This document shows positions 5,804 to 64,000 of a stretch of 64,000 bases of DNA, piece after piece (position 1 is the stretch's first letter; each line of letters begins with the position of its first letter). The stretch comes from Candidatus Woesearchaeota archaeon (GTDB taxonomy: Archaea; Nanobdellota; Nanobdellia; Woesearchaeales; GW2011-AR9): assembly GCA_016185725.1 (NCBI GenBank), contig JACPNA010000042.1, positions 1,681 through 65,680 on the forward strand. Direction: 5' to 3'. The notes beneath the pieces are model-generated. The model worked only from the letters and a program-made list of their open reading frames with translations. It did not search any database and was not told the DNA's origin. The position numbers were made by a program, and so were the translations under genes.

Positions 5804-6910
5804 ATGGAATATAAAATAACTTTATTCAAAGTTCATATGCCAAAATCTGTAATCAAGCCTCTTAAGAATACATTACTTAGTGGTTTTATTGGTCAAGGTC
5901 CTAAAGTTGAAGAATTCGAAAATATTTTGGGAAACTATATTGGAAATAAATACGTTCTTACTTTAAATTCTTGTACTTCTGCTATTCAATTAGCTCTTCG
6001 CTTGTGTAATGTTGGTTTTGGAGATGAAGTTATTTCTACTGCCATGACCTGTACTGCCACAAATGAACCCATTTTAGCTCTGGATGCGAAAATAATTTGG
6101 GCAGACATAAATCCTACTACCGGAAACATTGATCCAAAATCAATCAAAAATAAAATTACCAATAAAACCAAAGCAATTATAGCTATGCATTGGGGAGGAT
6201 ACCCTCCTGATTTAAAAGAAATTAATATTATTGCTAAAGAATATGGAATTAAAGTTATTGAAGATGCTGCTCATGCTTTTGGAGCAGAATACCAAGGACA
6301 AAAAATAGGTAATCATTCTGATTTTGTTTGTTTTTCATTTCAAGCAATAAAACACATTAATACTGTAGATGGAGGAGCATTGTTCTGTAAATCAGAAGAG
6401 GATTATAAAAGAGGTAAACTCTTAAGATGGTATGGTATAGATAGAGAAGAAAAAGATCGCTCTGATCATCGATTAGAAAAAGATATTAAAGAATATGGGT
6501 ATAAATTTCATATGAATGATGTTTGTGCAACAATTGGAATAGAACAAATGAAATTTATTGATAAAATTTTAGAAAAAAATAGAGCAAATATCAATACATT
6601 AAACAATGCCTTTCAAAACAACAATAAAATTAAATTATTAAGTTATAAAAATGATAGATTATCTGCGTATTGGTTATATACTATTCTTATAAAAAATAAA
6701 GATGATTTTAAAACAAAAATGAACGAGAAAGGGATAATGGTTTCTCCTGTACACGCACGTAATGATTCCCATACTATGTTTCAAGAATTTAGATGTGAAC
6801 TTCCCAATGTAGATAAATTTTATTCTGAAATGATTTGTATCCCTTCGGGATGGTGGCTTAAAAATGAAGAGATAGAATATATTATTAAAACTATCAACGA
6901 AGGATGGTAA
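5804..6910 (+). CDS. DegT/DnrJ/EryC1/StrS-family PLP-dependent sugar aminotransferase
   Basis: It contains DAAHAFGAEY and SFQAIKHI (the Schiff-base Lys region) and is 368 aa long. Confidence 0.85.
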   Translation: MEYKITLFKVHMPKSVIKPLKNTLLSGFIGQGPKVEEFENILGNYIGNKYVLTLNSCTSAIQLALRLCNVGFGDEVISTAMTCTATNEPILALDAKIIWADINPTTGNIDPKSIKNKITNKTKAIIAMHWGGYPPDLKEINIIAKEYGIKVIEDAAHAFGAEYQGQKIGNHSDFVCFSFQAIKHINTVDGGALFCKSEEDYKRGKLLRWYGIDREEKDRSDHRLEKDIKEYGYKFHMNDVCATIGIEQMKFIDKILEKNRANINTLNNAFQNNNKIKLLSYKNDRLSAYWLYTILIKNKDDFKTKMNEKGIMVSPVHARNDSHTMFQEFRCELPNVDKFYSEMICIPSGWWLKNEEIEYIIKTINEGW

Positions 6911-33018: not shown

Positions 33019-33175
33019 CGTCTAAACCAAACAGACTTTATTTAAAAGTATTATGCAAGAAAAAACAATCAATAACAAGTAAAATTATGATGACGAAAAA
33101 TCGTAGTTCAGAACAAGAACATGTTAAACATTTTTTGATATACACCCTGGAAATTTCCTATAATAAAAATAAGGA

Positions 33176-33283
33176 GGACAGCTTACCGATGTTCCCACGT
33201 AACGCAGTACAAATCAGTACGGAGACGTTCTTAACTTCCGAGATCGAAACGGGATCGGGTGACCCACGCCCCTCTGGCCGTCC
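33176..33283 (-). rRNA. rrf: 5S ribosomal RNA
   Basis: The reverse complement reads GGACGGCCAGAGGGGCGUGGGUCACCCGAUCCCGUUUCGAUCUCGGAAGUUAAGAACG...GUGGGAACAUCGGUAAGCUGUCC. It matches the 5S consensus CCGAUCCCAUUCCGAAC-CGGAAGUUAAG and has a terminal helix I pairing (GGACGGC/GCUGUCC). It is a GC-rich island in AT-rich DNA. Confidence 0.8.
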
Positions 33284-33302
33284 AATAATGCTAATTCTCC
33301 CG

Positions 33303-47598: not shown

Positions 47599-47847
47599 TT
47601 AACCTTTGATACGTTCTTCGGGACGCCTATTTATCTCCTTCCCGGAAATGATTGTCCCCTTTGGTGATAGTTTGAATGTGATATTATTCTTTAGTAAACG
47701 TTTCATTTTACCATCCTGCTCTATAACCAACGTTGATTTTGTTTCATCAACAACTTTACCGCAAATTCCTTGATTGAATTTATTTGTTGATTCTACAATG
47801 CATATTTCCTTGCCGATTAACTCAAAAGGGAATATCTTTATCTTCAT
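47599..47847 (-). CDS. rnp1: RNase P protein component 1 (Rpp29/Pop4)
   Basis: It contains ELIGKEICIVESTNKFNQGICGKVVDETKSTLVIEQDGK, an Rpp29 Sm-like fold. It sits in the conserved position between S17 and SUI1. Confidence 0.7.
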   Translation of the reverse strand: MKIKIFPFELIGKEICIVESTNKFNQGICGKVVDETKSTLVIEQDGKMKRLLKNNITFKLSPKGTIISGKEINRRPEERIKG

Positions 47848-59683: not shown

Positions 59684-60640
59684 TCACCGAATTCCCACCA
59701 ACATCACAAACGCTAAAAAACTTTCTAACTGAATATACTCATCACTTCCTTCTACCATCCTAAACTCTACTTCTCCGCATTTATCAACTAACTCTACTTT
59801 TTTTCGATCATCGAGATACAAATTCCAGATCTCTTTTTGAATTTGTTTAATCACATCAATTCCCGACAGCCCATAATCCAGCATCAATGATAATAGCTTC
59901 TTCCTTGCCTCAATGAAATTACCATTCGCTGCAATCGACAAAACTTCATTGACCTCTCTCGGTTTCGCTACTGAAGCCATAGAATAAACCAAATTCGCAT
60001 CAATTTTTGCATTCAGAACCGCACAACTCTGCATAATATTCTCTAATTTTCGACAATCGCCTTCACACACTTCAAATAACGCCTTTCGTGCATCAGAAGA
60101 AACTTCCAATTTTTCTCCCTTACCCACTGTATCAATAACCACGCCAATCTCTTGTTCTGATAACGGCTTAAACCGAAATACTGCGCATCGACTTTGTATT
60201 GGATCAATAATCTTTGAACTATAATTACATGATAAAATAAAACGGCAAGTCTTAGTATAATTCTCCATTGTCCGTCTAAGAGCCTGTTGTGCTTCTCGTG
60301 TCAAAGCATCCGATTCATCTAAATAAATCAATTTAAATGGCACATCGCCGATTGCTCTTGTTCGCGCAAAATCCTTAACCTTGACCCTGATAATATCAAT
60401 TCCTCGTTCATCAGAAGCATTTAATTCTAATGTGTTATCACGCCAATATTCTCCAAATAACTGCTTAGCAATAACCAAAGACAGCGTTGTCTTACCTATT
60501 CCCGCCGGTCCGGAAAACAACAAATGAGGCATATTTCCTGATTTTACAAACGCTGCCACTTTTTCTACAATTTCCTTCTGACCTTTAACCTCATCAAAAC
60601 TTGCTGGTCTATACTTCTCTGTCCAAATTGTCGAAGTCAT
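59684..60640 (-). CDS. rfcS: Replication factor C small subunit
   Basis: It has a Walker A (LLFSGPAGIGKTT), a DEAD-like box (IYLDESDAL) and an SRC motif region. It has 318 aa. Confidence 0.9.
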   Translation of the reverse strand: MTSTIWTEKYRPASFDEVKGQKEIVEKVAAFVKSGNMPHLLFSGPAGIGKTTLSLVIAKQLFGEYWRDNTLELNASDERGIDIIRVKVKDFARTRAIGDVPFKLIYLDESDALTREAQQALRRTMENYTKTCRFILSCNYSSKIIDPIQSRCAVFRFKPLSEQEIGVVIDTVGKGEKLEVSSDARKALFEVCEGDCRKLENIMQSCAVLNAKIDANLVYSMASVAKPREVNEVLSIAANGNFIEARKKLLSLMLDYGLSGIDVIKQIQKEIWNLYLDDRKKVELVDKCGEVEFRMVEGSDEYIQLESFLAFVMLVGIR

Positions 60641-60694
60641 AAAATATCAAGACTATACTTAGTTTATAAGTTTTACTCCCCCCAAATCTCTACA

Positions 60695-60886
60695 CTAAAA
60701 AACATATAATATCACTTGCTTAAAAATACTAAACATTTGCGGCAAAGACAAATTAAACACAAAAACAACTACTAACGTAGCTAATAACACCCAAATCATT
60801 GCTTTCAGCACCAACGTTAAAATCTCCTCTAAAAAAACCAAAATTAACACCCCCGATGCTATAACTATAAGCAAAAATATATCCAT
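60695..60886 (-). CDS. Possible small 2-TM membrane protein (63 aa)
   Basis: It is a hydrophobic ORF between rfcS and mscS on the same strand. It has no homology signal and may be spurious. Confidence 0.2.
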   Translation of the reverse strand: MDIFLLIVIASGVLILVFLEEILTLVLKAMIWVLLATLVVVFVFNLSLPQMFSIFKQVILYVF

Positions 60887-60945
60887 TTAAAACCTAAAAA
60901 CAGAGAAAGTATTTAATAATTACTCTAAAAAATAAATTTAAAAAA

Positions 60946-62016
60946 TTAATCCTTCACATGAACAACTTGTGTAGGATAAGGAATCATAATCTTAGCCTTA
61001 TTTAAAGCATTATATACTTCTTCCGTTATCTTCAGCTGCATCGCCGCTTCTTTATCCCAATGCTCCACCCAAAAGAATACCCTAAACTTCAATGCAAAAT
61101 CTCCCATCTCAAAAAATTGTACCGAAGGAGCCGGTTTTTTGGAAACACCCTCTATTTTACTCACTACACCCATTACCACCTTCCTCACTTTCTCTACATC
61201 CGTGCCATATTCCACCCCAAAATCTACTCGTCCTCTAACTCTAGTATCTGGCTGAGTAAAATTCATCACTCTTGAATTTGCTAAATAACCATTGGGGATA
61301 TACACTACTTCATTATTGAAAGTCATCAACTTTGTGCTTCTCAACCCAATATCGTGAATAATTCCCACTTCTCCGCTTTCCAATTTTATCTTATCCCCGA
61401 TTTGGTAAGTCTTATCAACTAATAAATTAATTCCGCCAAGAACATTCTTCAAAGAATCCTGCAACGCTAATCCTAACACAATACCACTGATACCCACGCC
61501 AGCTAAATAAGGAGTAATATTAATCCCCCATATATTAAGCGCCCACATCAACGCAATTATCACAAATACGATATGCGATGCTTTATGAAATAACGGTAAT
61601 AACACATCATCTAATTTACTTTCTGTTCTCTTAGAAAATGTTATGCCCCACCCTTCAATGAATACATCTAAAACCCTCATTAACACAAACAAAAATGTTA
61701 CTGCTAACAACGTATCCACAACATTAACCAGCCGATCATGCCACCCCATATTAAATAAAGCTAATTTTACCCCGAAAACCAATATTAGCAAAAATATCGG
61801 CTTGCTCGTATATTTGAATATCAAATCATCAATAATTGTCTCTGTTTTCCCCGCTAAAGTTTTCAGATATCCATTAAACAAAAACAATAATACTCCCGCA
61901 AAGACTGCAAATGCCACCACTATTGCAATTGAAGAAATCAGCAGATTATCCATATATGGTAACGTATGTACTCTTCCCAACAGATTATCCATGAATGCTT
62001 GCGTTATTAAGACCAT
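60946..62016 (-). CDS. Mechanosensitive ion channel, MscS family
   Basis: It has N-terminal TM helices followed by an MscS beta-domain (LANSRVMNFTQP...). Confidence 0.85.
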   Translation of the reverse strand: MVLITQAFMDNLLGRVHTLPYMDNLLISSIAIVVAFAVFAGVLLFLFNGYLKTLAGKTETIIDDLIFKYTSKPIFLLILVFGVKLALFNMGWHDRLVNVVDTLLAVTFLFVLMRVLDVFIEGWGITFSKRTESKLDDVLLPLFHKASHIVFVIIALMWALNIWGINITPYLAGVGISGIVLGLALQDSLKNVLGGINLLVDKTYQIGDKIKLESGEVGIIHDIGLRSTKLMTFNNEVVYIPNGYLANSRVMNFTQPDTRVRGRVDFGVEYGTDVEKVRKVVMGVVSKIEGVSKKPAPSVQFFEMGDFALKFRVFFWVEHWDKEAAMQLKITEEVYNALNKAKIMIPYPTQVVHVKD

Positions 62017-62213
62017 CTTCTCTCAAGACAAACCCTTCTTTAAATATATTTCGCTTCAAAATTTTTTGTGTTATCCCCAAACTATTCCCTGTGATGAGTT
62101 TTTTTTAATTTAGAAGTTATTTAGCTTTCCACCAATTAAATTTAACCATCAACATCCAAAAAAATCAACCAACACTAAAAAAAGAAGAATAAATTAAAAA
62201 TTCTTACTTGAAA

Positions 62214-62498
62214 TTAATCCTCTTTCATATCCCCCACATCACCGGAAGGAACAGCATTTCTTGAAATGATCACTACATCCCCAATTGACTTCACTAGTTG
62301 ATGTGGTACAATGACCCCTCTTGCACTGCCGATAACTCTGCTTAAGAAAGAAGTTTTAGTTGCTTTAATTCTCCACCCAGAAATTTTATTTCCTGCCAGA
62401 ATACATTCCTCTATGTCGCCAAAGTAATCACCTGAATCTGTGAACACTTTTAAATCATACGAATCCGATAATTTTCTCATTTTTAACATAAATTTCAC
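62214..62498 (-). CDS. PRC-barrel domain protein
   Basis: The 94-aa protein has a PRC-barrel-like sequence (VIGSARGVIVPHQLVKSIGDVVIIS). Confidence 0.55.
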   Translation of the reverse strand: MKFMLKMRKLSDSYDLKVFTDSGDYFGDIEECILAGNKISGWRIKATKTSFLSRVIGSARGVIVPHQLVKSIGDVVIISRNAVPSGDVGDMKED

Positions 62499-62573: not shown

Positions 62574-63326
62574 ATGAAGACAATGCCTTCTCTTAAGCTC
62601 TTGGGAACTTCTCATATTGCTCAGCAAAGTATCAACGAAATAAAACACGCCATAACTGTTTTTCAGCCAGATATCATTGCTTTAGAACTAGATACCCCGC
62701 GTGCTCATTCCTTGCTATCAGAAAAACAAAACAAAATTTCCCTAACCGCCATCACTGAAATAGGTGTTAAAGGCTATTTATTCGCTAAAATCGGGCAAAT
62801 CGCCCAACAAAAATTAGGCAATTCTGTAGACATTGCCCCCGGCTCAGAAATGAAAACAGCTCTGGAACTAGCTAAAAAAAATAACCTTCAAATAGAATTA
62901 ATTGATCAGCCCATTCAAATCACCTTGAAAAACTTCTCTAAACATTTAACCTGGAAAGAAAAATTTCATTTCTTCACCGATATCCTCCACGGAATTTTCT
63001 TTCCGAAAAAACAACTTCGTGAATTTGGCCTGGAAAAACTAGATTTACGTAAAGTTCCCGAAAAAGAACTAATCATGAAAATAGTCGCCCAGCTAAAAAA
63101 ACGCTACCCTAACATCTATAAAACCCTTATTGACGACCGTAATCGTTATATGGTTAAATGCCTTGTTAAACTTCTACGCGAACATCCCGGAAAAAAAATT
63201 CTGACCATTGTCGGCGCCGGCCATTTAGACGGCATGCAAGAGTTATTGTTAAAGATAGATGTTATAAGAACAGGAGAGAACTTTGCAAAAAATCATCCTA
63301 AAGAGAAAAATCTCATACCCCACTAA
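62574..63326 (+). CDS. TraB/GumN-family protein
   Basis: The N-terminus is LKLLGTSHIAQQSINEIKHAITVFQPDIIALELD and a GAGHLDG-type motif lies near the C-terminus. Confidence 0.7.
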   Translation: MKTMPSLKLLGTSHIAQQSINEIKHAITVFQPDIIALELDTPRAHSLLSEKQNKISLTAITEIGVKGYLFAKIGQIAQQKLGNSVDIAPGSEMKTALELAKKNNLQIELIDQPIQITLKNFSKHLTWKEKFHFFTDILHGIFFPKKQLREFGLEKLDLRKVPEKELIMKIVAQLKKRYPNIYKTLIDDRNRYMVKCLVKLLREHPGKKILTIVGAGHLDGMQELLLKIDVIRTGENFAKNHPKEKNLIPH

Positions 63327-63385
63327 ATTTTTTACTGAAAAAAAACTACAATTTTTACCGTAACATTTTTAAAAAACAACCCCTT

Positions 63386-63824
63386 TTAACTTCATAAAGT
63401 AGCAGTGGCAGGAGCTCACACAAACCGCAGGTCGTATGTTGTGGGATTGAGTCTAATCACAAAATCCCACTTGAATGAATTTCAATTCAAATATTTGACT
63501 TGCTCAACGGTTTGCGAGGAAAGTCCGTCCACCAGTAAAGAGAATTAACCTCTCTCTACAACATGACCGCTTCCCTAGGAAGGAGGAGAAATCCCTCGGC
63601 TCTGGCTCAGAAACGACATGTCCATAACTAAGGATGATATTGGCGAAGCTTCTTGTGAAAGAAGTCAGTTAACCCTTTGACATTGGTTATGGGAACAATT
63701 AAACGGCGAAACCTGGTCGGTGCAAGTACATTTATGTACGCTTAGTAGAATGCTCTAAACGACTATCGGCATTTCTTAGAAATGTTTTGGGTCTTACAAA
63801 AGACGGCTTACGCCACTCTACTTT
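63386..63824 (+). ncRNA. rnpB: RNase P RNA (archaeal), boundaries approximate
   Basis: CR-I-like GAGGAAAGUCCG lies at 63516-63527. CR-V-like ACAAAAGACGGCUUACGCC lies at 63797-63815. The terminal pairing is AAAGUAGCAGUGGC (63387-63400) with GCCACUCUACUUU (63812-63824). It is a GC-enriched island, and a TTTAAAAA TATA-like element lies about 20-25 nt upstream. Confidence 0.55.
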
Positions 63825-64000
63825 TCTTTATTTTAGTGAACAACATAATTAAAGCCTAATTTTATATGTCGTTTACTATCTAATGAGCGACACAATTTAA
63901 TGATTTGCTTATGTCACTCATTATTTAACCAAAAACTATAAAAACTACCCTAAAAAACAATACTTTTATGACCGATGACAAAATTCGCTTGCCTTCAGGA

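What the first reader, a model, noticed from the sequence alone, without database searches (positions are those of the whole stretch)
63386..63824. Probable RNase P RNA, unusually long, co-resident with Rpp29 in the same window
CR-I (GAGGAAAGUCCG) and CR-V-like (GACGGCUUACGCC) elements plus a terminal P1/P2-like pairing delimit an RNA of about 440 nt. This is longer than typical archaeal type-A RNase P RNAs of about 300-370 nt. About 130 nt separate the 5' end from CR-I, which suggests an expanded P3 or an inserted AT-rich element. The protein subunit Rpp29 is encoded at 47599-47847.
Basis: seen in the sequence. Interest (0 to 1): 0.5.

Follow-up and report, generated by a model that had tools for sequence, protein, structure and literature searches.

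The report
RNase P RNA with expanded P3
This is the gene for the catalytic RNA of the tRNA-trimming enzyme RNase P in a Woesearchaeota (DPANN) archaeon; it is about 90 bases longer than in most relatives, mainly because helix P3 carries a branched extra domain that about one in six related species share and that the papers I searched do not describe.

Summary
The finding holds. Window 63396-63824 (+), 429 nt, is an archaeal RNase P RNA gene. Rfam RNaseP_arch scores 83.8 bits (E = 1.4e-23), 0.2 bits under the gathering cut-off, so a threshold scan of the window misses it. The model mis-reads CR-I as P1/P2 because P3 is 94 nt long, not about 20.

P1, P2, P4 (with the bulged U), P5, P7-P9, P15 and P19 all form. 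Except for P2, whose register slips in my alignment, they covary across 51 distinct homologues from Woesearchaeota/Nanoarchaeota genomes. All 51 gene copies checked also have a TATA box 29-33 nt upstream of P1, and most lie downstream of a TraB gene. Rpp29 at 47599-47847 is confirmed.

The extra length comes mainly from a P3 domain: stems P3a and P3b, capped by a junction with hairpins A and B. Hairpin A has compensatory changes in 8 of 10 pairs. The domain occurs in 9 of about 52 species loci. Close relatives (about 90% core identity) lack it, and it was found nowhere outside P3.

It is most likely a dispensable peripheral domain kept in the mature RNA, for stabilisation or protein docking; that role is inferred. 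A 17-nt hairpin in J5/7 adds the rest. It is a new variant of a known RNA, of moderate interest.

The parts
63367..63374 (+). TATA box (TTTTAAAA) of the RNase P RNA gene
   Evidence: A TATA-like octamer lies 29-33 nt upstream of the GUAG of P1 in all 51 gene copies checked (44 of them at 31-32 nt). In the window the distance is 32 nt.
63396..63824 (+). RNase P RNA gene, 429 nt
   Evidence: Rfam RF00373 gives 83.8 bits, E = 1.4e-23. The ends are set by P1. All 19 related loci scanned, 18 of them with the gene downstream of a TraB gene (L005 and L098 included), score 94-157 bits.
63396..63409 (+). P1 5' strand (C63403 bulged); pairs with 63812-63824
   Evidence: 12 of 13 pairs show compensatory changes across 51 distinct sequences, and 94-99% of cells are paired.
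63411..63415 (+). P2 5' strand GGAGC; pairs with GCUCU at 63752-63756
   Evidence: The pairing is read directly from the sequence. By eye, relatives show matched variants AAAGC/GCUUU, GAAGC/GCUUC and UUAGC/GCUAA. My alignment slips register here because the window strand is one base shorter, so the column count gives only 55% paired.
63421..63514 (+). P3 domain, 94 nt: P3a 63421-27/63508-14, P3b 63428-39/63491-502, hairpins A and B, 5-nt bulge 63503-07
   Evidence: The minimum-energy fold is -33 kcal/mol, z = -4.8. A closing stem with hairpin A is predicted in 9 of 11 homologues folded separately, and in 7 of them the second stem (P3b) as well. The closest relative by terminal-helix and P4 sequence, L032, has a 26-nt P3 here.
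63441..63470 (+). Hairpin A: 8-bp stem, tandem non-canonical pairs (G.A/A.A here, G.A/A.G in relatives), 2-bp cap, 6-nt loop
   Evidence: Model R1 scores 73.7 bits here. Eight of 10 pairs have changes on both sides and 98% of cells are paired. RNAalifold predicts the same hairpin independently.
63471..63490 (+). Hairpin B: UUGAAU/AUUCAA stem, loop GAAUUUCA (GAAUUUGG in most relatives)
   Evidence: The sequence is conserved in 12 homologues. The stem is only weakly supported by covariation, because the UGA/UCA core never varies.
63516..63529 (+). CR-I with the P4 5' strand (AAG-U-CCGUC, 63521-63529)
   Evidence: Sequence read. P4 cells are 100% paired. Compensatory pairs are CCGUC/GACGG, CCACC/GGUGG and, in L048, AGGUCC/GGCCU.
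63539..63555 (+). Extra hairpin in J5/7 (AGAGA-AUUAACC-UCUCU), in the position of P5.1
   Evidence: It is absent from L032, L017, L051 and L018. By eye, roughly 15 other relatives carry extra sequence at this position, with or without the P3 domain.
63565..63718 (+). Specificity domain P7-P12 (P7 63565-69/63714-18, P8 63570-82, P9 63583-97, P12 about 63620-93) with CR-II and CR-III
   Evidence: The Rfam alignment has high posterior probability here. P7, P8 and P9 are 94-98% paired, with compensatory changes in 13 of 14 pairs.
63726..63739 (+). P15 as a plain hairpin (GUACA-UUUA-UGUAC); no L15 loop, P16, P17 or P6
   Evidence: Only 4 nt stand where the Rfam model has 35. The same short hairpin is present in all relatives, 95% paired.
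63761..63793 (+). P19 in J2/4: GAC/GUC, internal loop UAUCG/UUUGG, then GCAUUUC/GAAAUGU
   Evidence: All 10 pairs show compensatory changes across relatives. The internal loop is conserved. P19 is reported in various archaeal clades (PMC12974513).
63797..63811 (+). CR-V with the P4 3' strand (GACGGCUU, 63802-63809)
63821..63833 (+). T-rich tract (UUUUCUUUAUUUU), likely transcription stop
   Evidence: Sequence read. T-runs follow P1 in the relatives as well. That it acts as a terminator is inferred.
47599..47847 (-). Rpp29 (Pop4) protein subunit gene
   Evidence: PF01868 at 63.1 bits, E = 2.3e-17. The neighbouring genes match L29, SUI1 and S17 in Pfam; the L14 call rests on my reading of the translated ORF.

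Best explanation
Window 63396-63824 (+) encodes the catalytic RNA of ribonucleoprotein RNase P, which removes 5' leaders from precursor tRNAs, in a Candidatus Woesearchaeota (DPANN) archaeon. It is transcribed on its own from a TATA box at 63367-63374 and ends in a T-rich tract. The core is that of the archaeal family: P1, P2, P4 with its bulged U, P5, the P7-P12 specificity domain, and CR-I to CR-V. Like all its Woesearchaeota relatives it has a reduced form with P15 as a bare hairpin, no P6/P16/P17, and a P19 hairpin. The unusual length comes from two lineage-variable additions. The first is a 94-nt P3 domain: two stacked stems (P3a, P3b) ending in a three-way junction with conserved hairpins A and B. 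The second is a 17-nt hairpin in J5/7. Inferred, not shown: the P3 domain stays in the mature RNA as a peripheral 'expansion' element. It would help the catalytic domain fold or offer a docking surface for a protein subunit, without touching the chemistry. The enzyme can do without it, since close relatives lack it, but it is kept under selection for structure where present.
For: Identity:
- RF00373 scores 83.8 bits, E = 1.4e-23.
- All 19 related loci scanned, 18 of them with the gene downstream of a TraB gene, pass the gathering score at 94-157 bits. The seven that carry the P3 domain or another long P3 insert are reported 5'-truncated, the same mis-registration as in the window.
- P1, P4, P5, P7, P8, P9, P15 and P19 are 85-100% paired, with many compensatory changes, across 51 distinct sequences.
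- P4 covaries directly: CCGUC/GACGG, CCACC/GGUGG and AGGUCC/GGCCU.
- The TATA box lies at a fixed distance in all 51 gene copies checked.
- Rpp29 is encoded in the window.

P3 domain:
- The fold has z = -4.8.
- Model R1 finds it in 13 loci, always inside P3 of an RNase P RNA, at 55-74 bits for the 12 complete copies (27 bits for L006, cut by a contig end). It finds only one copy in the 64-kb window.
- Hairpin A has changes on both sides in 8 of 10 pairs and is 98% paired. None of 500 shuffles reaches the observed values, and slid partners fall to 22-54% paired.
- P3b has a different sequence in each lineage yet pairs in the window, L005, L054, L071, L021, L048, L024 and L031.

Dispensability: close relatives lack the domain. 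L005 and L040 share 90.8% core identity, L024 and L098 90.6%, and L025 and L008 89.8%.

Age: domain identity between lineages (49-91%) is similar to core identity (65-84%).
Against: - The score is formally below Rfam's gathering cut-off.
- No expression, end-mapping or activity data exist, so retention of the domain in the mature RNA and any stabilising or docking role are inferred.
- The window's own copy is the most degenerate of the set: hairpin A has G.A/A.A where relatives have G.A/A.G, and the hairpin-B loop is GAAUUUCA where most have GAAUUUGG. It may be decaying.
- Hairpin B and the 3' part of the domain have competing pairings that I could not resolve.
- Only 12 distinct copies were available.
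Confidence: 0.85

Rival explanations
1. The P3 insert is an intervening sequence (an archaeal bulge-helix-bulge intron) that the splicing endonuclease cuts out, so the mature RNase P RNA has an ordinary short P3.
For: The domain is present or absent among very close relatives, as archaeal introns are. Removing hairpins A and B would leave a plain P3a/P3b hairpin. A bulge-helix-bulge-like alternative fold appears at the same relative position in the window, L005 and L071.
Against: Bulge-helix-bulge-like hits are no more frequent than in shuffled sequence in most copies, and none is found in L025 or L084. That alternative fold would unfold hairpin A, whose 10 pairs are 98% kept and 8 of which show compensatory changes. 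Selection of that kind is not expected for a passive intron.
Confidence: 0.05
2. The insert is a selfish or accidental insertion (a miniature mobile element or slippage product) with no role in the enzyme, tolerated because the tip of P3 is permissive.
For: P3 is a hot spot. L007, L057 and L072 carry unrelated P3 extensions. The domain is often absent in near relatives. The window's copy has lost two conserved motifs.
Against: Only one copy exists in the window and none lies outside RNase P RNA in 605 kb of related loci. Viral contigs that match a loose pattern score at most 18 bits. Hairpin A and P3b keep their pairing through sequence change. Domain divergence tracks core divergence, so there is no sign of recent spread.
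Confidence: 0.08
3. The locus is a decaying pseudogene of RNase P RNA, and the functional copy or a protein-only enzyme lies elsewhere in the genome.
For: The score is just under the Rfam gathering cut-off, and there are two insertions relative to the closest relative.
Against: CR-I, CR-IV and CR-V, the bulged U of P4 and every core helix are intact. The promoter sits at the conserved distance. In 18 of the 19 related loci scanned the gene lies at the same position downstream of TraB, and it scores 94-157 bits in all 19. A survey found no HARP protein-only enzyme in any DPANN genome examined (PMC6380272). Rpp29 is retained.
Confidence: 0.03

Closest known systems
Archaeal RNase P RNA, Rfam RF00373 (type A consensus)
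   Same: It has P1-P5, P7-P12 and CR-I to CR-V, the P4 pseudoknot with its bulged U, and a GAUGA...UGAC sequence in P12 at the place where other archaeal RNase P RNAs bind L7Ae (sequence resemblance only; a kink-turn was not tested). An Rpp29 partner is encoded nearby.
   Different: P3 is 94 nt and branched, where the consensus is a simple hairpin of about 20 nt. There is no P6, P16, P17 or L15 loop. It has an extra J5/7 hairpin. It scores 0.2 bits below the gathering score, and the model mis-aligns the 5' end.
Archaeal type M RNase P RNA (Methanococcales, Archaeoglobus)
   Same: It lacks P16, the P6 pseudoknot and the substrate-recognition loop of P15, as type M is defined in PMC4919922.
   Different: Type M also lacks P8. 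Here P8 (63570-63582) is present and covaries. The lineage is DPANN, not Euryarchaeota. PMC12974513 reports such P16/P17 losses as arising independently in several archaeal lineages.
P3 domain of eukaryotic nuclear RNase P and RNase MRP (ES3.1 / P3a; binds Pop6-Pop7 = Rpp20-Rpp25)
   Same: P3 is elaborated from one helix into proximal stem, internal loop or bulge, and distal stem. It sits at the same place in the catalytic domain.
   Different: I saw no sequence resemblance to it (not formally compared). The archaeal domain ends in a three-way junction with two conserved hairpins. It occurs in only about one sixth of the species sampled. No protein partner is known or tested. Reviews describe the prokaryotic P3 as a single helix (PMC8509007).
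P5.1 and P19 of bacterial type B RNase P RNA
   Same: The J5/7 hairpin (63539-63555) occupies the position of P5.1. The J2/4 hairpin (63761-63793) occupies the position of P19, which is also reported in archaeal clades.
   Different: No homology to the bacterial elements is shown. The J5/7 hairpin is sporadic among relatives.

Membership tests
Archaeal RNase P RNA (RF00373) | Covariance-model score at or above the curated gathering score (84 bits) | tested here: inconclusive
   The score is 83.8 bits, E = 1.4e-23, so the hit is absent from the gathering-threshold scan. The alignment takes CR-I for P1/P2 because of the P3 insert. All 19 related loci scanned score 94-157 bits, and the seven with the P3 domain or another long P3 insert are 5'-truncated in the same way.
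Archaeal RNase P RNA (RF00373) | CR-I and CR-V pair to form P4 with a bulged U | tested here: met
   AAG-U-CCGUC (63521-29) pairs with GACGGCUU (63802-09). P4 is 100% paired across 51 sequences, with three pairs showing compensatory change.
Archaeal RNase P RNA (RF00373) | P1 and P2 close the molecule, with P3 between P2 and CR-I | tested here: met
   P1 is 63396-409/63812-24, P2 is 63411-15/63752-56 and P3 is 63421-514. Twelve of 13 P1 pairs show compensatory changes. P2 pairs in the window sequence; matched variants in relatives were read by eye only.
Archaeal RNase P RNA (RF00373) | Specificity domain (P7-P12) with CR-II and CR-III | tested here: met
   The region aligns to the Rfam model with high posterior probability. 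P7, P8 and P9 are 94-98% paired and covary.
Archaeal RNase P RNA (RF00373) | Archaeal protein subunits encoded in the genome (Rpp29, Rpp21, Pop5, Rpp30, L7Ae) | tested here: inconclusive
   Rpp29 is confirmed (PF01868, 63 bits). I did not look for the other four in the window, and the rest of the genome is not available.
Archaeal RNase P RNA (RF00373) | Cleaves the 5' leader of precursor tRNA | not testable with these tools
   This needs reconstitution or in vivo data.
Type A subtype | P15 internal loop (L15), P16/P17 and the P6 pseudoknot | tested here: not met
   P15 is a 5-bp hairpin with a 4-nt loop where the model has 35 nt. The same holds in the four relatives aligned, and the P15 stem covaries across 51 sequences.
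Type M subtype | Absence of P8, together with absence of P16, P6 and L15 | tested here: not met
   P8 (CUUCC/GGAAG, 63570-82) is present, 94% paired, with 4 of 5 pairs covarying. The definition is from PMC4919922.
Eukaryote-type P3 domain | Helix, internal loop, helix, bound by a Pop6/Pop7 (Alba-fold) heterodimer | not testable with these tools
   The shape is only partly alike: P3a, a bulge, then P3b. Protein binding is unknown.
Archaeal bulge-helix-bulge intron | Two 3-nt bulges on opposite strands, separated by 4 bp, at the insert borders | tested here: not met
   Hits are no more frequent than in shuffles, are absent from L025 and L084, and conflict with hairpin A.

The most novel reading that the evidence does not exclude
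The branched P3 domain may be an independently evolved archaeal counterpart of the eukaryotic P3 domain. Its conserved hairpins (the tandem G.A helix of hairpin A and the GAAUUUGG loop of hairpin B) would recruit L7Ae or a so-far unrecognised subunit. Its three mutually complementary strands covary together in L021, so it might also switch between two folds during assembly. That would make Woesearchaeota a natural with/without system for studying how RNase P RNAs acquire protein-binding expansions.
Probability: 0.2. Interest if true: 0.6.

Novelty: new variant of a known kind. Interest (0 to 1): 0.4.

Why it matters
There is a practical consequence. The insert pushes a genuine, essential RNA gene just under Rfam's threshold, so threshold-based annotation will report this genome as lacking RNase P RNA. 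The same mis-registration truncates the 5' end in other relatives with a long P3. There is also a biological point. Reviews describe the prokaryotic P3 as a single helix and tie P3 elaboration to the protein-rich eukaryotic enzymes. Here a 90-160-nt structured P3 domain with covariation support exists in an archaeal lineage, next to sister species at about 90% core identity that lack it. That gives matched natural pairs for testing what a peripheral RNA domain contributes to a ribonucleoprotein ribozyme. It also shows P3 to be a hot spot for gain and loss of RNA in genome-reduced DPANN archaea.

Tried and rejected
1. The whole-window Rfam scan at gathering threshold returned only 5S rRNA. The RNase P hit appeared only with the E-value threshold.
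2. A simple search for the longest ungapped P1 helix was misled by A/T-rich flanks. I replaced it with a gapped local alignment.
3. The nearest TraB relatives (P0002, P0003, P0005 and others) were fetched to obtain closer RNase P RNAs. Their contigs either end or carry other genes downstream, so they gave no closer homologue.
4. The single metagenome scan with a domain-specific pattern gave only 3 true hits and 5 chance hits.
5. I tested a kissing contact between the hairpin-B loop and the J5/7 hairpin loop. It is rejected because J5/7 hairpins and the P3 domain occur independently of each other.
6. I tested pairing of the hairpin-B loop with P19. Complementarity of 7-10 bp exists in 4 of 10 RNAs, but P19 is the same in relatives without the domain, so this is probably chance.
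7. Bulge-helix-bulge intron: see the rival explanations.
8. Kink-turn or K-loop reading of hairpin A. The order stem-GA-loop-GA-stem resembles a K-loop. However, there is no 3-nt bulge and the 2-bp cap covaries, so I do not claim it.
9. The viral-contig scan used too loose a pattern. All hits were chance, at 18 bits or less.
10. The weak match to snoU105B on the minus strand (E = 1.4) was dismissed.
11. The 47-aa ORF at 63405-63548 lies inside the RNA and is taken as spurious.

Full report
**Observation.** GAGGAAAGUCCG lies at 63516-63527 and GACGGCUUACGCC at 63802-63814. The terminal pairing joins AAAGUAG(C)AGUGGC (63396-63409) to GCCACUCUACUUU (63812-63824). The RNA therefore runs 63396-63824, 429 nt.

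**Rfam result.** A scan of the whole window at gathering thresholds reports only a 5S rRNA. A scan of 63200-64000 at E-value threshold gives RNaseP_arch (RF00373) at 63517-63822, 83.8 bits against a gathering score of 84, E = 1.4e-23. The printed alignment shows why the score is low. The model uses CR-I as its P1/P2 strand and skips the true 5' part, because P3 is far longer than the model allows.

**Organism and relatives.** The neighbouring TraB/GumN gene (62574-63326) is identical to a protein of a Candidatus Woesearchaeota MAG. An alignment of TraB homologues retrieved 80 loci from Woesearchaeota/Nanoarchaeota genomes, one per species.
- In about 50 of them an RNase P RNA gene lies downstream of TraB on the same strand.
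- All 19 related loci scanned with Rfam (18 of them from this set) pass the gathering score at 94-157 bits. The seven with the P3 domain or another long P3 insert are reported 5'-truncated, as in the window.
- A TATA-like octamer lies 29-33 nt upstream of the GUAG of P1 in all 51 gene copies checked. In the window it is TTTTAAAA at 63367-63374.
- A T-rich tract follows P1.

**Core structure.** The helices were read from the sequence and counted across 51 distinct homologues.

| Helix | Cells paired | Pairs with compensatory change |
|---|---|---|
| P1 | 94-99% | 12 of 13 |
| P4 | 100% | 3 of 8 |
| P5 | 100% | 2 of 4 |
| P7 | 95% | 5 of 5 |
| P8 | 94% | 4 of 5 |
| P9 | 98% | 4 of 4 |
| P15 | 95% | 3 of 5 |
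| P19 | 85-99% | 10 of 10 |

P4 covaries directly. CCGCC/GGCGG is the commonest form. CCGUC/GACGG occurs in the window and five others, CCACC/GGUGG in two, and L048 has AGGUCC/GGCCU. By eye, L019 also shows GUCUGC/GGCAGC; it was not in the counted set.

The whole clade has P8 but only a 5-bp P15 hairpin, without L15, P16, P17 or P6. It is neither full type A nor type M as defined in PMC4919922. Independent losses of P16/P17 in several archaeal lineages, and the occurrence of P19 in archaea, are already described (PMC12974513).

Rpp29 at 47599-47847 (-) is confirmed by Pfam (63 bits), inside an L29-SUI1-Rpp29-S17-L14 cluster.

**Why it is long.** In 39 relatives the distance from the 5' end to CR-I is 34-49 nt (median 38). 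In the window it is 121 nt by the same measure. Aligned with L032, the closest relative by terminal-helix and P4 sequence (331 nt), the window RNA has two insertions: about 77 nt in P3, and a hairpin in J5/7 at 63539-63555.

The P3 region folds at -33 kcal/mol, z = -4.8. Its parts are:
- P3a, 63421-27 with 63508-14;
- a 5-nt bulge;
- P3b, 63428-39 with 63491-502;
- a junction bearing hairpin A (63441-70) and hairpin B (63471-90).

**The P3 domain in other genomes.** The same domain is recognisable in L005, L025, L054, L071, L031 and L024. A covariance model of hairpins A and B (R1) was searched over 605 kb (the window plus 96 loci). It found 13 copies (the 12 complete ones at 55-74 bits), adding L048, L021 and L006. 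Every copy is inside P3 of an RNase P RNA, none is elsewhere, and the window has only one.
- Hairpin A is an 8-bp stem, then tandem G.A/A.G, then a 2-bp cap with a 3-6-nt loop. It is 98% paired, with changes on both sides in 8 of 10 pairs. No shuffle reaches the observed values, and slid partners drop to 22-54% paired.
- RNAalifold finds hairpin A independently.
- Hairpin B is conserved in sequence (YUGA...GAAUUUGG...UCAR) but has little covariation.
- Folding each of 11 homologues alone gives hairpin A in all of them, a closing stem with it in 9, and P3b as well in 7. P3b differs in sequence in each lineage.
- The L025 group lacks P3b and forms a 3' hairpin in its place.
- The strand next to CR-I can pair either with the 5' strand of P3 or with the stretch after hairpin B. 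In L021 all three changed together. I could not resolve this (note 3).

**Distribution.** Among the species-level loci, 9 of about 52 with a readable RNase P RNA 5' region carry the domain. Its carriers are interleaved with non-carriers:
- L005 against L040: 90.8% core identity;
- L024 against L098: 90.6%;
- L025 against L008: 89.8%;
- L005 against L007: 92.5% TraB identity, and L007 has a different P3 insert.

Identity between domains (49-91%) is of the same order as identity between RNA cores (65-84%), with weak correlation (r = 0.28). So the domain looks old and repeatedly lost, not recently spread, although exchange by recombination is not excluded. P3 is a hot spot: L007, L057 and L072 carry other extensions. 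The window's copy is the most divergent, with G.A/A.A in hairpin A and GAAUUUCA in loop B.

**Mechanism.** The following are shown: the gene's identity, its core fold, its promoter context, and that the P3 domain is a structured element under selection that the enzyme can do without. The following is inferred: the domain is kept in the mature RNA and acts as a peripheral element. It would stabilise the catalytic domain of a reduced RNA that has lost P16/P17/P6, or provide a protein-docking surface, as the elaborated P3 does in eukaryotes (PMC8509007; PMC12974513).

**Rivals.**
- Intron. Scans for bulge-helix-bulge motifs give no more hits than shuffles, and the candidate fold destroys hairpin A.
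- Functionless or mobile insert. There are no other copies, the viral hits are chance, and covariation argues against it.
- Pseudogene. The core and promoter are intact, and a survey found no protein-only HARP enzyme in any DPANN genome examined (PMC6380272).

**Novelty.** Full-text searches found no paper that treats RNase P RNA of Woesearchaeota or related DPANN groups. The recent survey of 298 archaeal RNase P RNAs illustrates P3 elaboration (ES3.1) only with the human RNA and, for Nanoarchaeales, mentions only loss of P2 and P3. My verdict is an ordinary, essential gene, correctly spotted, carrying an apparently undescribed variant of P3. Interest is moderate.

Noticed in passing
window 33173-33285 (-): 5S rRNA gene, 62.4 bits. 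It was the only Rfam hit at gathering threshold in the whole window.
   Followed up: no
window 1-64000: ARAGORN finds no tRNA gene in 64 kb. This may be real, or it may reflect intron-containing or split archaeal tRNAs that the tool misses.
   Followed up: no
window 63539-63555: A hairpin (AGAGA-AUUAACC-UCUCU) in J5/7, the position of bacterial P5.1, is absent from the four relatives aligned with the window (L032, L017, L051, L018). By eye, roughly 15 other Woesearchaeota RNase P RNAs carry extra sequence of other kinds at the same position.
   Followed up: partly
window 63761-63793 and all related loci: The J2/4 hairpin (P19) is a two-part helix with a conserved internal loop, YAUCG opposite UUUGG, in nearly every relative. 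The role of that loop is unknown.
   Followed up: partly
L048:4262-4780: This RNase P RNA has a divergent CR-I (GAGUUGAAGGUCCG) matched by a compensating change in CR-V (GGCGGCCUA). It also has a 130-nt P3 domain.
   Followed up: partly
L007 about 6030-6165; L057:5826-5931; L072:5045-5121: These loci carry other, unrelated P3 extensions. L007's TraB is 92.5% identical to that of L005, yet L007 carries a different insert of about 50 nt, so P3 turns over quickly.
   Followed up: partly
L021:3741-3876: Three strands of the P3 domain (CGGCCCUUUU, CAGCCCUUUUG, CAAAAGGGUUG) changed together, so both alternative pairings stay perfect. This could be a switch or the trace of a duplication.
   Followed up: partly
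L002-L081 (record titles): Many of the GTDB records are titled 'uncultured Methanosarcinales archaeon', yet their TraB and RNase P RNA group with Woesearchaeota/Nanoarchaeota MAGs. The titles look like mislabels.
   Followed up: no
L090-L092: The closest TraB relatives of the window (87.5% identity) have no RNase P RNA in the 120-140 nt after TraB. They carry a GC-richer sequence there, and the contigs end, so the synteny is not universal.
   Followed up: partly
L024:5030-5425: A run of N (a masked stretch) lies inside this RNase P RNA gene, in the CR-IV/P2 region.
   Followed up: no
window 59684-62498: Upstream neighbours are an RFC small subunit (59684-60640, -), an MscS-type channel (60946-62016, -) and a PRC-barrel protein (62214-62498, -). 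The MscS / PRC-barrel / TraB order recurs in L096 and L097 and, with a Pfam-unannotated 91-aa ORF in the PRC-barrel position, in L100.
   Followed up: no
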